Assembly (NCBI GenBank): GCA_030141605.1
Contig: JAQGDQ010001053.1
Location: 3,402-67,401, forward strand
Reading direction: 5' to 3'
Source: Tubiluchus corallicola
Taxonomy: Eukaryota > Animalia > Priapulida
Length of the DNA: 64,000 nt
In this document: in pieces, positions 15,653-63,941 of the stretch
Layout of the letters: each line of letters opens with the position of its first letter
How positions within the stretch are numbered: position 1 is the first letter of the stretch
The notes under the pieces: model-generated
What the model was told of the DNA's origin: nothing
What the model saw: only the letters and a program-made list of their open reading frames with translations
The model's database searches: none
Position numbers and translations under genes: made by a program

Positions 15653-17186
15653 ACAAAGTTTTAAGCTAAAATTGCAAAGTTATCTTAATACTGAATTTAC
15701 TTTTAAATATGTAATTATGTAAAACTGTTTTCGTCATTTGTATAATAGGATCTTTCTAACGATTCTTTAGAGAAACATGAGCTACACATAGATCAGTAAT
15801 GTATACATTAAGTAATTACATGATAACTGTTGTATTACTAACCTGCGTTAGTGTTTGTTATATCTCCTGCAAAAATTTAACTTAATTTTAATAAAGATTT
15901 GCATATTACTGTCAGTTTACAACCTACAGCTCAGTCGAGACATTTTCTTTAAGTATTTCTTGCCACATCTACAGATCCCATCTCATACGCTGATGGTTTA
16001 TAATGAAAAGGTGTAGTGAATGTTCAAATGATGTTTAGAGAAAGAAGCATTTGAGATGGCTTTGCCTGTTAGACATCTTGTTTACAGGAAGTCATGATGG
16101 TAATTGAAAGCCATATTTTGCCAACTGAAAACAAAAATAACGTGTTATGGGTGTCAGAAGAAGAGATCAGAGTTCATGAAAAACACGTGATAATTATAGA
16201 TAACTAGAAACAGTAATTTCAGTTTATTTACTTCACTTCAATGGCACATCATAGTAGCATACATTTTACATACACGTACATCATGATATAATGTTAAGCT
16301 GTTTTAACATATAAATTTTAACACTTATAGGTATAATGATTTGAATTTATATTAGTCTATGACACTGTAGCAGTTTAAGAAACATATTATAGTTTTGTAA
16401 GAACTGCTGAATGTAAAATAGAAACGAGGAGGTAAATCTATTTACAAGGGTAAATACAGAGATAGAAATAAGTAAAAAATATTTTGGCTAAAATAAGAAA
16501 AGAACAGATGTAAGAATTACAGTTACTATGACAGCATCGACATGCAAGCATGTGTGGCAATGAGCTCAATATTGATAAATATTAATTACCAATTAGTATC
16601 AAAATAAGCTGGCTAGCACGTCCTGTTATGGCTGATGGTAATTAAACTTAAAACTAAATTTAATAAATAATAATGCAATTGTTTTACAGATCATGATAGG
16701 GCAAATGGAAGAAAATCTGTGACATATTGTAATATTGTAAGAGTTGAAGACTGAGATTTGTTGTTTAAATATTTTTTATAACAGAAGAGCTAAATTATAA
16801 CTGACTTGTCCAAATTATTCCACATAAGTGACCCCATGAACTCTTTCATAGTGGTTACAAAAAGCCTAGCAATAATCAAACTATAGAGCTTTTGCCATAT
16901 GAATAAAGGATGCATTGACCTCTGCACTGGAGAATCGCCTCCTCTTTTTGTTATTCTGAACTAAATGCACCCTGTTTTTAGAAAACACATTGCTAGTAGA
17001 CAATTATTCTTAAAGCCTACTTAGGGCAAAAAGTTGTAACCAGTTTCAATTTTCCACTACAATACGTGTGTTGTTATAGGATTATATTTTTATAATTGTT
17101 TTAATCTCAAAGTAAACAAATCACCTATTTTTGCTCCTTTAATTTAGCTAATAAATAATATACAGATAGGTAACATTCAAAGGTAA

Positions 17187-17370
17187 TTAGCTAACATTTG
17201 CATATAAATGAACTGAAGTAGGTTTAGCACGTGGAGATAGATCTGGTTCTTCATAAACCGCTGACGTGTCAGCTGCACTGCTGCCACCTGTTGGACGTGA
17301 AATAAAACTGTAACTGTTGTTGCTTGAAGGCTGATCCTGTATGACATAATAACCATTCTCTTCTTGGAAT
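17187..17370 (-). CDS. Lectin-CUB receptor A, terminal cytoplasmic exon with Tyr motifs
   Basis: tttttcgtag|A phase 2. FQEENGYYVIQDQPSSNNSYSFI...AVYEEPDL...HLYANVS*. Confidence 0.75.
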
Positions 17371-17399
17371 CTACGAAAAATAAGAGTAGCTTCATCAGT

Positions 17400-17826
17400 G
17401 ACAACAATATGATAACAACAAAACAATAAAAGCAACATCAACGACAATGACAATGTTGACAACAAGAACAAGAACAACAACACCTATAACTACTACTACG
17501 ACTGCAGCTACTACTACTACTGCTACTACTGCTGCCACTACTACTACGACGACGACAACGACGACGACGACGACGACGACAACTACGACTGCTACTACTA
17601 CGACGACAACAAAAACCAGATGACAGCAATAATAACAATGACGATGACGCCAACAACAAGAACAACAATGATGATGATGACAACACCGCCACCAACAAAA
17701 ACTACTACTACTACTACTACAATGACGATGACGATGACAACTACGACTGCTACTACTATGACAACGGCAACGACAACAATGACCAGAACGACAGCAACAA
17801 CAATGACAGCAATAATAACAACAACA
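17400..17826. repeat. Compound trinucleotide microsatellite (ACA/CTA/CGA/TGA)
   Basis: Visible low-complexity runs in an intron. Confidence 0.95.
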
Positions 17827-18314
17827 GAAATAAGACGGCTATTTCTTAAACGTTGCAAACAATTGTTGAGGGCATAACTTATAAAAATTTCAAGCTCGAC
17901 CTGTTACTTGAAGGTACAGTATTACTATACTTTCTTAAACATAACACATTTCTGATCACAATTTTCTGTTTTGAATTCAAGTAATAATAAGTTTTACTGT
18001 GATTGCCTAACGTGACGTTTGATTTGATCATACTGTTTATTTCAGGTTAATTGGATGAATCGGTAGAAGAAATCAAAATTTATTTGTGAACTCAAAGTTT
18101 TGTAATTTTATTTTATTAACAGAAATAAAGACTTGGACACCATCAAGATTTTACGGAATTTCGCTATTCACTGCAACACTCTTAGTTCAAGTTGATTCTC
18201 GGAACGATACGAGAACTTTGTTCACACTACCCAATTCCTTTGTTGAATGCCGTACAAAAATCTCTAAAAACTTGACCAAAATTTTCACGTCTGCTTGGAC
18301 AAATAAAAACTTAC

Positions 18315-18351
18315 CTTTGCTGAACGTGACCTGCATTGTTTGATAACACGT
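18315..18351 (-). CDS. Receptor A, small juxtamembrane exon (phase 1-2)
   Basis: tattccag|AC...CAA AG|GTAAG, 37 nt. Bridges the phase-1 TM exon to the phase-2 tail exon. Confidence 0.7.
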
Positions 18352-18423
18352 CTGGAATAGAAATAACAATTATATTTTAAATTACGTAAAATATTATGAT
18401 ATTAAATTCCGTAAATGGCATTG

Positions 18424-61081: not shown

Positions 61082-61355
61082 GAAACAGTAAAAGAAACAG
61101 TAAAAGAAGCAGTAAAAGAAGCTGTAAAAGAAACAGTAAAAGAAGCAGTAAAAGAAACAGTAAAAGAAGCAGTAAAAGAAACAGTAAAAGAAACAGTGAA
61201 AGAAGCAGTAAAAGAAACAGTAAAGGAAACCGTAAAAGAAGCAGTAAAGGAAACAGTAAAAGAAGCAGTAAAAGAAACAGTAAAAGAAACAGTAAAAGAA
61301 GCAGTAAAAGAAACAGTAAAGGAAACAGTAAAAGAAGCAGTAAAAGAAACAGTAG
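61082..61355. repeat. 12-bp tandem repeat (GTAAAAGAA[A/G]CA)n
   Basis: About 23 copies, intronic. Confidence 0.95.
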
Positions 61356-62099
61356 AGGTTAAATAGTAAATCGTATTAAATTTTACATGACAAAAGTGAG
61401 AATGAAATCAAGGTTCTCATCCTGGTGAACTTTTGGATTTTTGTGTATTTATTTGCTTAAAACTCCATCATTAGTGACAAATTTATCCAGTATTTTTTGT
61501 ACAATGCTGTTACGTTTGGGTGGAGTTACTCAGAAGATGTTTTCACATTAATCACAAGTCATTTCACTTCATTGGTTTTTACCATAAACTCAACAGTAAA
61601 GTACTATATTATCTTATCTTATGTATATATATATATATATATATATATATATATATATATATATATATAAATATATATATATATGGGTGTGTGATCTGTA
61701 TTCGTACTTTGATTTGTACACTCTGAGTTAGTTAATTAAATTAAACAGAAAACAACAACAACACTATTTACATACACAAATGTATACACTTACATTTACG
61801 TACGCAAACTACTGATGGTTAATGCAGAGATTTTTACACAATGTTTACATGCAGGTACTAAATAGTGGTTTAGTAACTTATGATTATTTTTATTTCCTCA
61901 TCATTTAGACCTACGTCATATACTCCTTCGATCCGATCACATTGGCATAACCAGGTTCTCTTGTGAAAAATTGGCACTACGTTAATTGTACATAAACGTT
62001 TAAGCTGAGTTTGTTAAAAGGGGGGACATCTAAACAATTCACATTTAACTAAACACTTAAATGTGTTACATTAAATCAGATAATGCTATACACTCTATG

Positions 62100-62535
62100 C
62101 ACTACACTTCATACTATACTCTCTAATGCTTATCCCTCTATACACTACACTCCATACTATACTCTCTAATGCTTATCCCTCTATACACTACACTCCATAC
62201 TATACTGTCTAATGCTTATCCCTCTATACACTACACTCCATACTATACTCTCTAATGCTTATCCCTCTATACACTACACTCCATACTATACTGTCTAATG
62301 CTTGTCCCTCTATACACTACACTTCATACTATACTCTCTAATGCTTATCCCTCTATACACTACACTCCATACTATACTGTCTAATGCTTATCCCTCTATA
62401 CACTACACTCCATACTATACTCTCTAATGCTCATCCCTCTATACACTACACTCCATACTATACTCTCTAATGCTCATCCCTCTATACACTACACTCCATA
62501 CTATACTCTCTAATGCTCATCCCTCTATACACTAC
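62100..62535. repeat. ~42-bp tandem repeat
   Basis: cactacactccatactatactctctaatgcttatccctctata, about 10 copies. Confidence 0.93.
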
Positions 62536-62561
62536 ATTGTGTTTATCATGAGAATAATTGC

Positions 62562-62681
62562 CTGATTCTGTTGCTGAAGATGTCTGTTCAGTTTCTGTTG
62601 AAGATTCTGTTTCAGTGGTTGATGGTAAGTTGGTGGTAATTTCAGTACTAGGAACTGCTGTAGTTTCCGTAACAGGACCCA
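62562..62681 (-). CDS. CUB receptor B, first Ser/Thr-rich stalk exon (GC donor)
   Basis: tgtgatcag|TG GGT CCT...TCA G|GCAAT, 120 nt. GPVTETTAVPSTEITTNLPSTTETESSTETEQTSSATES. Confidence 0.7.
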
Positions 62682-63545
62682 CTGATCACACGGTATGAAA
62701 AACAATAGAGTTTGAAGAAACAAAATTAAAAACGAAAAACAATTAATGAAATAAAAAAGGAAGTAAGAACGAATTATTATGCTCAGTTTTTGTATCGTCA
62801 GACATGTTGACTAAAGATACTGCACTTAAAGGACAAGACAAGGGGTACCTGATGTACGTTTCAGAAAAAGAGTCTTAAAAAATTATATTACTTTATAGCA
62901 ATTTTATGCGCATATCGTACTCGCGTTGAAATAATGCTTTTTTACATTTTAAATCTCCCACAATACTGTTTCAACCACACCATTACGTGACGTCATATAT
63001 GCACAAAGTAAATCAGGTGAAGAAAAGTTAAATGCTAAAATATGTTCCAAAAAAATTCTATATATAATTATGTTACTTGGCATTTCTCAACTAGAAAAAA
63101 ATATTAATTATTTAGAATGTTTTCATCCATTGATAAAATATCGTTGTCTCACCTCCAGGGTGCACCACTCACCAACCAAAAAACGCATTTTAATCTTATT
63201 GACAAGATACAGTAATTTAAAATTTTACTCAGTTAGTGACGTGTGCGTCACGAATGTTCTGATTATTCTTTCAAGCTTTACACAATGTTATATAATTTTG
63301 TTTCAAATGACGTATCTTCAAAATGGCTGCGTCTAACGGTCATCAAGGGAGTTTAAATTTACGTTTTATACAGCGTTATTGCCGACGTAAGCCCTGTATG
63401 TAAAATAAGCAGTATGTGAGTGGTATAAATTTTCAAAACGAGTTTTCTGAGCTTTATGTAAGTGGGAGGTTTTCTCGTACTTTGACAGCAATGTACAACG
63501 AAAAAGCTGGAGTGAAAATTAGAAAGTTGGTTTCGACTTTCTTAC

Positions 63546-63941
63546 CTTGATAGTGAATGAAAAATCCTCGACCTTCATTTAAACTTGCAAAGGAACCAGA
63601 ATTTTCTGTTACAATAAACTCAACTGTGAAAGTGTCACCTCCATCAAAGGAATAACCATCCAAGGTTTTATTATCACAGAATTTCTGAGTGTTATTATTT
63701 ATCTGTAGGTATGAATTAGGGCAGTTTGCATTGTCATTGTTTTCAAGTTCGAAATGATAGGCAGTCAATATCCCATTGGTAACATCGTTCTCTCTCATGG
63801 TAAGCCACCACAAACAGTTATATTCACCCGTTGGATATGAACTAGGATAGTTTGGGCTCTGTAGATAACCTGAAGTGTGACTTAGATTCATGTGATGGTT
63901 TTCTACTTCTCCAACTGCAGTGCAGCGACTGATTTCATCTT
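63546..63941 (-). CDS. CUB receptor B, CUB-domain exon
   Basis: 396 nt, phase 1-1. Differs from the copy-A exon at about 5 of 132 residues. Confidence 0.92.

What the first reader, a model, noticed from the sequence alone, without database searches (positions are those of the whole stretch)
16881..63941. Paired receptors: near-identical CUB ectodomain exon on unrelated TM and cytoplasmic tails
Seen: CUB exons 21859-22254 and 63546-63941 differ by about 5 aa and share adjacent intron sequence. Their TM exons (114 vs 94 nt, different end phase) and tails (about 73 aa vs about 187 aa) show no evident similarity. Knowledge: shared ligand-binding domains with different Tyr-motif tails define vertebrate paired receptors (KIR, LILR, Siglec-5/14), where gene conversion maintains the ectodomains. 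Inference: an invertebrate lectin/CUB paired-receptor system built by ectodomain conversion or exon shuffling.
Basis: partly seen in the sequence, partly recalled or inferred. Interest (0 to 1): 0.8.

Follow-up and report, generated by a model that had tools for sequence, protein, structure and literature searches.

The report
CUB-domain receptor pair, different signalling tails
Two neighbouring genes of an invertebrate animal carry an almost identical exon for an outer CUB domain but very different membrane and tyrosine-rich inner exons; the exon was likely copied between two old sister genes, which are predicted to sense the same signal and would answer differently, although neither expression nor opposite on/off signalling has been shown.

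Summary
Two minus-strand gene models are open and phase-consistent. Their CUB exons differ at 10 of 396 bases and 5 residues. The TM exons (114 and 94 nt) and tails show no DNA similarity.

The intron and stalk exon behind the CUB are homologous but 21–24% diverged, against 6% at CUB synonymous sites (P=0.006). These are therefore old sister genes with a later copy event limited to about the CUB exon.

Tail A has a 9-spaced ITAM-like motif (shuffle P=0.004). Tail B has one chance-level ITIM (P=0.34) inside a 12-spaced ITAM-like motif, plus five NS[I/L]Y sites. Opposite signs are plausible but not shown. Neither TM carries a charged residue, so this is not KIR/Siglec-14-like; CEACAM1/3 is closer.

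Caveats: no RNA evidence; B's 5′ part lies off the window; a gap separates A's lectin-like exon from its CUB; non-coding blocks here are also about 6% diverged, so the match need not be selected.

Similar systems are published for Hydractinia and Botryllus, and the scan noted Ig-type invertebrate pairs on other DNA. What is new is the CUB domain.

The parts
24869..24933 (-). Receptor A: candidate ATG/signal-peptide exon, the last unit of a 97-bp x5.6 array (24874-25414); two donor/acceptor options keep the frame (419 or 428 aa)
   Evidence: the join is inferred
24228..24384 (-). Truncated duplicate of the SUEL-like exon with an in-frame stop (pseudo-exon), 84% identical to the intact one
23250..23597 (-). 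Receptor A: SUEL/RBL-like exon, 8 Cys, no YGR or DPC motif
   Evidence: Pfam E=0.0028, below cut-off; Atlas features 0.95 to clusters where 21-36% of members carry SUEL, recognition below threshold
22896..23106 (.). Assembly gap of 211 N between A's SUEL-like and CUB exons; the only N run in the window
21859..22254 (-). Receptor A: CUB exon
21568..21720 (-). Decayed second copy of the CUB 3' end and its donor, in A's intron
   Evidence: score 119, shuffle max 86
20868..20996 (-). Receptor A: Ser/Thr/Glu-rich stalk exon (129 nt)
19069..19182 (-). Receptor A: TM exon (114 nt), no charged residue in the hydrophobic core
18315..18351 (-). Receptor A: 37-nt cytoplasmic exon (phase 1 to 2)
17187..17370 (-). 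Receptor A: terminal tail exon and stop; ITAM-like ExxYYVI-x9-YSFI at 17360-17301, YEEP at 17255-17244, YANV at 17204-17193
63546..63941 (-). Receptor B: CUB exon (any upstream exons lie beyond base 64000)
62562..62681 (-). Receptor B: stalk exon 1 (120 nt, GC donor; the frame is kept whether it is used or skipped)
60683..60811 (-). Receptor B: stalk exon 2 (129 nt)
59036..59129 (-). Receptor B: TM exon (94 nt), no charged residue in the hydrophobic core
58076..58640 (-). Receptor B: terminal tail exon, 187 aa; YNHL-x12-YARL at 58477-58418, ITIM-consensus SNYARL at 58435-58418, five NS[I/L]Y at 58315-58115
   Evidence: chance of an open frame this long about 4e-6
21850..22300 (.). Inferred copied tract in A (partner about 63537-63986): CUB exon, about 46 nt of upstream intron and about 8 nt of the donor
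   Evidence: sliding identity

Best explanation
Two predicted single-pass receptor genes that are likely old tandem sister genes share a 97.5%-identical CUB exon, likely through gene conversion limited to that exon, so they would bind the same outside partner, with A predicted to activate through its own ITAM-like motif and B predicted to dampen or reroute the signal through an ITIM-consensus site and five NS[I/L]Y sites. Shown: the open exon chains, the sharp identity peak over the CUB exon, the older homology of intron and stalk, and the motif matches. Inferred: splicing, conversion as the route, a shared ligand, Syk/Shark binding to A, and SHP or Dok-type PTB binding to B (the Dok preference for Asn-x-Leu-pTyr is recalled). 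My odds by step: conversion rather than a single crossover about 0.7; both genes expressed about 0.7; different effector sets about 0.8; truly opposite signs about 0.4. The copy event dates to about the local segmental duplication, so it may not be ongoing.
For: Both models are open with AG/GT sites, apart from one optional GC donor. CUB synonymous differences are 5 of about 78 sites against 29 of 140 in the downstream intron, Fisher P=0.006. Identity falls from 0.97 to 0.73-0.80 within 30 nt of the donor, and to 7 of 14 at the window's last bases, with no better match in A's upstream intron (best 9 of 14, shuffle mean 9.8). In the window's Ig paralogues, synonymous sites are not slower than flanking introns (0.145 against 0.02-0.04 at the I-set exon), which argues against synonymous constraint. 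dN is below dS in the CUB pair (0.016 against 0.064, P=0.03), so purifying selection acted after the copy. Tail A matches Yxx[IL]x6-9Yxx[IL] (P=0.004 in 20,000 shuffles; P=0.0005 with the acidic residue at -3). Tail B has five NxxY (P=0.002) with no DNA tandem array in that exon. The exon-restricted pattern is the one described for Xenopus ceacam301/303 (PMC5112662, passages).
Against: B's ITIM is expected by chance (P=0.34). Its tyrosine is also the second half of a 12-spaced ITAM-like motif (P=0.037), the spacing of activating FcgammaRIIA (PMC6563257, passage). A fails the strict 6-8 ITAM spacing. The 16 patterns were chosen after reading the tails; across 32 tests the plain ITAM match is no longer significant (about 0.12). 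Three mostly non-coding duplicated blocks have the same divergence as CUB synonymous sites (0.055, 0.063, 0.068; P=0.82 for a difference), and the Ig paralogues are a mosaic from 0.06 to 0.27, so homogenised tracts are not specific to this exon. The genes are in the same orientation, unlike the Xenopus pairs. A's 5' end looks unstable (ATG array, stop-bearing pseudo-exon, gap). Evidence for a 5' edge of the tract rests on 14 bases.
Confidence: 0.45

Rival explanations
1. Same history, no opposing pair. The CUB exon was homogenised incidentally in an unstable duplicated region because it was the only stretch still similar enough to recombine. Both tails are activating or general tyrosine scaffolds, immune or not.
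For: Non-coding blocks show equal divergence. B carries a 12-spaced ITAM-like motif and only a chance-level ITIM. The faint proximal similarity of the tails suggests common origin. The 10 CUB differences are spread along the exon rather than leaving a fresh zero-difference tract.
Against: dN below dS after the copy shows both CUB copies were kept similar at the protein level. The motif sets differ strongly: 5 against 0 NS[I/L]Y; YxxP and YxN only in A.
Confidence: 0.3
2. One gene is a chimera from a single unequal crossover near the CUB donor (FCGR2C-like): the 5' half comes from a recent duplicate of A and the 3' half from an older paralogue.
For: CUB synonymous divergence (0.064) equals that of the segmental-duplication blocks (0.055-0.068), and the upstream intron (5 of 49) is compatible with it. 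The second unit has no trace of an A copy between its two shared blocks.
Against: The last 14 bases of the window match A at only 7 positions, with no displaced match within 600 nt. This suggests a 5' edge, though an insertion would look the same.
Confidence: 0.15
3. Artefact or dead gene: the two loci are mis-assembled haplotypes, or A is a decaying gene that is not expressed.
For: A's 5' region has an amplified ATG unit whose upstream copies end in stops, a stop-bearing pseudo-exon with usable splice sites, a CUB remnant and a gap.
Against: There is no N between CUB and stop in either gene. Flanks are 21-24% diverged and TM/tails do not align, far beyond two haplotypes of one gene. Both chains are open over more than 400 codons and dN is below dS.
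Confidence: 0.1

Closest known systems
CEACAM1/CEACAM3 and Xenopus ceacam301/303 (PMC5112662, abstract start and passages)
   Same: Conversion restricted to one ectodomain exon plus splice sites; activating member carries its own ITAM-like motif, often with a YxN site
   Different: IgV rather than CUB; opposite gene orientation; clear ITIM/ITSM partner; near absence of synonymous changes, against 6% here
FCGR2A/2B/2C (PMC6563257, passages)
   Same: Near-identical ectodomain on different tails within a segmental duplication; 12-spaced non-classical ITAM like the one in tail B
   Different: Ig domains, known ligand and tested functions; FCGR2C is a single-crossover chimera
KIR, LILR, PILR, SIRP, Siglec-5/14 (PMC3533184 abstract and section 3; PMC13358205 passages)
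   Same: Clustered genes with shared ligand-binding domains
   Different: Activating members have short tails and a charged TM residue, absent here; described as Ig or C-type lectin families
Hydractinia Alr2/Alr30 and the Alr family (PMC9546547, passages)
   Same: Invertebrate neighbours with similar ectodomain and dissimilar tail; ITAM and ITIM tails; one domain per exon
   Different: Ig/Fn3 ectodomains; expression shown; allorecognition role
Botryllus FF/FcoR (PMC12582321, passages)
   Same: Ectodomains and tails mixed by intergenic recombination; ITIM, hemITAM and other Tyr motifs
   Different: Ig superfamily; pairs are receptor plus co-receptor; large polymorphic families
CD200R1 (PMC13613202, passages)
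   Same: Inhibition without a classical ITIM, through an NxxY-type PTB site that recruits Dok2; a possible model for tail B
   Different: One NPLY site against five NS[I/L]Y sites lacking the proline; Ig ectodomain

Membership tests
Paired receptors (PMC3533184 definition) | Highly similar extracellular ligand-binding region | tested here: met
   CUB 126 of 131 residues identical; stalks diverged; B's more distal domains are off the window
Paired receptors (PMC3533184 definition) | Genes in a small cluster | tested here: met
   CUB exons about 41.7 kb apart in one window
Paired receptors (PMC3533184 definition) | Inhibitory member with ITIM | tested here: inconclusive
   One SxYxxL in B, shuffle P=0.34; no strict ITIM or ITSM; lies within a 12-spaced ITAM-like motif
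Paired receptors, adaptor-coupled type (KIR/LILR/Siglec-14) | Activating member with short tail and Lys/Arg in the TM | tested here: not met
   No charged residue in either 19-residue TM core; tails of 81 and 191 residues
Paired receptors, intrinsic-ITAM type (CEACAM3/FcgammaRIIA) | ITAM or ITAM-like motif in the activating member's own tail | tested here: inconclusive
   A meets the 6-9 spacing (PMC9546547) with an acidic -3 residue, but fails the 6-8 spacing (PMC5112662); B meets only the 6-12 spacing
Paired receptors, intrinsic-ITAM type (CEACAM3/FcgammaRIIA) | Conversion restricted to the ligand-binding exon | tested here: met
   Sharp 3' edge, P=0.006; the 5' edge rests on 14 bases; that the CUB binds the ligand is inferred
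Xenopus CEACAM pairs | Opposite transcriptional orientation | tested here: not met
   Both genes on the minus strand
Paired receptors (PMC3533184 definition) | Opposite signalling outcomes | not testable with these tools
   Needs pull-downs or reporter assays
Paired receptors (PMC3533184 definition) | Expression on overlapping cells | not testable with these tools
   No RNA holder listed
CUB domain (PF00431) | Pfam gathering score | tested here: met
   30.8 and 34.1 bits against 21.4; MASP-1/3 CUB match E=2e-7
SUEL/rhamnose-binding lectin (PMC3269628) | Eight cysteines | tested here: met
   Cys at 8, 24, 51, 60, 72, 78, 94, 113 of the exon
SUEL/rhamnose-binding lectin (PMC3269628) | YGR and DPC motifs | tested here: not met
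   Both absent (motifs from passage); Pfam 18.4 bits against 31.4
SUEL/rhamnose-binding lectin (PMC3269628) | RBL fold | tested here: inconclusive
   Single-sequence model pLDDT 45, no Foldseek match; Atlas feature hits are a lead only

The most novel reading that the evidence does not exclude
A true activating/inhibitory receptor pair built on a CUB (and SUEL-like) ectodomain, a third structural class beside Ig and C-type lectin pairs. It lies in what other notes call a priapulid, pits an intrinsic ITAM against a five-site Dok-type PTB brake, and is kept ligand-matched by exon-limited gene conversion under pathogen pressure.
Probability: 0.22. Interest if true: 0.78.

Novelty: new variant of a known kind. 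Interest (0 to 1): 0.45.

Why it matters
Reviews place paired receptors mainly in the Ig and C-type lectin families of vertebrates (PMC13358205, PMC3533184), and the invertebrate parallels I read are Ig-based (Hydractinia, Botryllus). A CUB-based pair would show that the 'same outside, different inside' design and its exon-limited copying arise on any recognition domain. If the taxon lead is right, it would also extend the design to an early-branching moulting animal. The two tails are short and can be tested directly for Syk/Shark, SHP and Dok recruitment. If the signs turn out the same, what remains is an ordinary converted paralogue pair.

Tried and rejected
No whole genome is held, so B's 5' part and further paralogues could not be examined.

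RNA: no RNA holder was listed for 57900-64000. The single run offered laid 0 of 70,053 contigs on 19500-24800 and on 13970-19200. This is no evidence either way.

Word-index protein searches of longer proteins found nothing for the CUB exon (121 candidates, none at E<=0.001), the SUEL-like exon (45 candidates, none at E<=0.01) or a neighbouring Cys-rich exon used as a taxon probe. Near-length and shorter proteins were not searched. The full HMMER search gave 139 proteins at 26-41% identity, nearly all multi-CUB, with no close relative; I did not use them further.

The Atlas gave nothing useful for tail B (best 0.78). The PDB sequence search for the SUEL-like exon gave only 3 weak unrelated hits. 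Its fold prediction failed (pLDDT 45) and the fold search is meaningless.

A suspected decayed CUB between B's stalk exons did not exceed shuffles (41 against mean 43; 61 against max 78) and was dropped. The only match between the stalk-to-TM introns is a 25-nt stretch that I read as a repeat end, not as homology. A tailor-made hemITAM-like pattern (P=0.0001) was written to fit A and is not counted; the published hemITAM consensus is not met. My automatic signal-peptide scan returned nothing at its threshold; the candidate exon was found by eye.

Fresh exon shuffling was rejected as the sole cause, because the downstream intron is far older than the exon (29 of 140 against 0.062, P=9e-9). A paper search on CUB calcium ligands returned 0 papers.
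Full report
Setting. The window is 34.7% GC animal DNA with spliceosomal introns and Ig, C1q, BTB and CUB exons. Several earlier notes on other pieces of this genome call it a likely priapulid. My own searches found no close relative of any of the three exons tried, so the taxon remains an untested lead.

Gene models. Receptor A, minus strand: SUEL-like exon 23597-23250, CUB 22254-21859, stalk 20996-20868, TM 19182-19069, a 37-nt exon 18351-18315, and tail 17370-17187. 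Receptor B: CUB 63941-63546, stalks 62681-62562 (GC donor, optional) and 60811-60683, TM 59129-59036, and tail 58640-58076. Both chains translate without an internal stop. A candidate signal exon at 24933-24869 completes A at 419 or 428 residues. The only N run, 22896-23106, lies between A's SUEL-like and CUB exons, so that link crosses a gap, while CUB to stop is gap-free in both genes. The splicing is predicted; no RNA was found.

The shared exon. The CUB exons differ at 10 of 396 bases: 5 synonymous and 5 replacements, pS 0.064 (95% interval 0.02-0.14) and pN 0.016, Fisher P=0.03. Behind the exon the genes remain homologous but are older. Mismatches are 13 of 63 and 16 of 77 in the intron and 19 of 78 before the stalk acceptor, and the stalk exons align above all 200 shuffles (133 against max 58). 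Synonymous sites against downstream intron give P=0.006. TM exons and tail exons do not align as DNA. As protein they give only a faint membrane-proximal match (P=0.022 and 0.064; E=0.32). There are thus three layers: a young CUB exon, an older CUB-intron-stalk module, and TM/tail modules that are either much older paralogues or unrelated. Upstream, 44 of 49 bases match, then 7 of the last 14, with no displaced match in A. This hints at a tract of about 450 bp bounded on both sides.

Context weakens the adaptive reading. The window holds a large mosaic duplication. Blocks 1-2700, 10878-12851 and 25861-26806 differ from their partners by 0.068, 0.063 and 0.055, and the Ig gene copies range from 0.06 to 0.27 along their length. 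CUB synonymous divergence is indistinguishable from these blocks (P=0.82). In the second unit the two shared blocks are 150 bp apart, with no trace of A between them. One inferred history is that A and B were once direct neighbours, the unit holding A was duplicated, and the A copy next to B exchanged the CUB exon and was later lost. The match would then date from that time and not be ongoing.

Tails. I tested 16 patterns on each tail against 20,000 shuffles; they were chosen after reading the tails. A (81 residues, 5 Tyr) has YYVI-x9-YSFI with an acidic residue at -3 (P=0.004, and 0.0005 with the acid), plus YEEP and YANV, which are at chance level singly. It meets the 6-9 ITAM definition used for Hydractinia (PMC9546547) but not the 6-8 one (PMC5112662). 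B (191 residues, 13 Tyr) has one SxYxxL ITIM match (P=0.34), a YNHL-x12-YARL motif (P=0.037) that shares that tyrosine, and five NS[I/L]Y sites (NxxY, P=0.002). The repeat finder reports no array in B's tail exon, so the motif core is kept while its flanks differ. Twelve-residue spacing is that of activating FcgammaRIIA (PMC6563257), and an NPLY site inhibits through Dok2 in CD200R (PMC13613202), so B can be read either way. Neither TM core has a charged residue.

Ectodomain function. The CUB passes Pfam's cut-off. The SUEL-like exon has eight cysteines but neither RBL motif and falls below the cut-off, so sugar binding is doubtful. One of the five CUB replacements (Gln in A, Glu in B, residue 66) aligns with a Glu of MASP CUB1. 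From recall that Glu is a calcium ligand, but the neighbouring Asp of that site is absent in both genes.

Comparison with what is known. I read passages of PMC5112662, PMC6563257, PMC9546547, PMC12582321, PMC13358205, PMC13613202 and PMC3269628, and the abstract and section 3 of PMC3533184. All other papers were seen only as search listings, and no supplements were opened. The exon-limited pattern with an intrinsic ITAM-like tail is that of CEACAM pairs. Similar ectodomain with dissimilar tail is published for Hydractinia Alr2/Alr30, and ectodomain-tail mixing for Botryllus. Searches for paired receptors with invertebrate, ITIM, ITAM and gene conversion (1 paper), for Priapulus with immune receptor, CUB and lectin (15 of 1,086 listed), for allorecognition tails (12 of 14 listed), for SUEL with CUB (13 listed) and for Syk/Shark (6 of 7 listed) listed no CUB-based pair. 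The library lacks most subscription journals. The scan has noted Ig-type invertebrate pairs in other genomes, and none for this CUB sequence.

Verdict. The feature is real: a converted-ectodomain receptor pair with different tyrosine-motif tails. It works like a CEACAM-type pair in layout. Membership of the paired-receptor class is not established, because opposite signs and co-expression are untested and the inhibitory motif is ambiguous. New variant of a known kind; interest 0.45.

Noticed in passing
window 2758-7196 (-) and 34515-40424 (-): Two copies of a multi-Ig gene with a gradient of divergence: distal V/I-type exon 68% identical in protein, proximal I-set exon 90%, DNA behind it 93%. 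This is the opposite pattern to the CUB pair. TM or GPI exons were not worked out.
   Followed up: partly
window 24874-25414 (-): A 97-bp array of 5.6 units, each with an ATG and a signal-peptide-like frame. The four upstream whole units end in a stop and only the last has usable donors. Upstream ATGs could lower translation of A.
   Followed up: partly
window 27879-31117 (-): C1q-domain gene lying between the two duplicated units (Pfam C1q on two exons).
   Followed up: no
window 13377-14330 (+): Secreted-looking Cys-rich gene next to A's 3' end, resembling colipase/prokineticin-type peptides (label recalled). No Pfam match and no homologue among longer proteins. Absent from the second unit.
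   Followed up: partly
window 42147-42464, 43447-43719, 44984-45271 (-): Three related exons with a six-cysteine pattern ending in CC, defensin-like by eye; no Pfam match.
   Followed up: no
window 25426-26806 and 54583-57359: Duplicated block with an open frame of unknown kind (25834-26064, no Pfam match) running into a 60/61-bp array of 6 units in one copy and about 30 in the other.
   Followed up: no
window 8377-8699 (-): Broken BTB/POZ sequence in two frames, likely a pseudogene.
   Followed up: no
window 47426-49585 (+) and 46012-46197 (+): 720-codon frame with an endonuclease/exonuclease/phosphatase domain (LINE-like) and a short RT-RNase H fragment; retroelement remains.
   Followed up: no
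window 7376-7624 (-): Apparent decayed Ig exon fragment directly upstream of the first Ig gene copy; no Pfam match.
   Followed up: no
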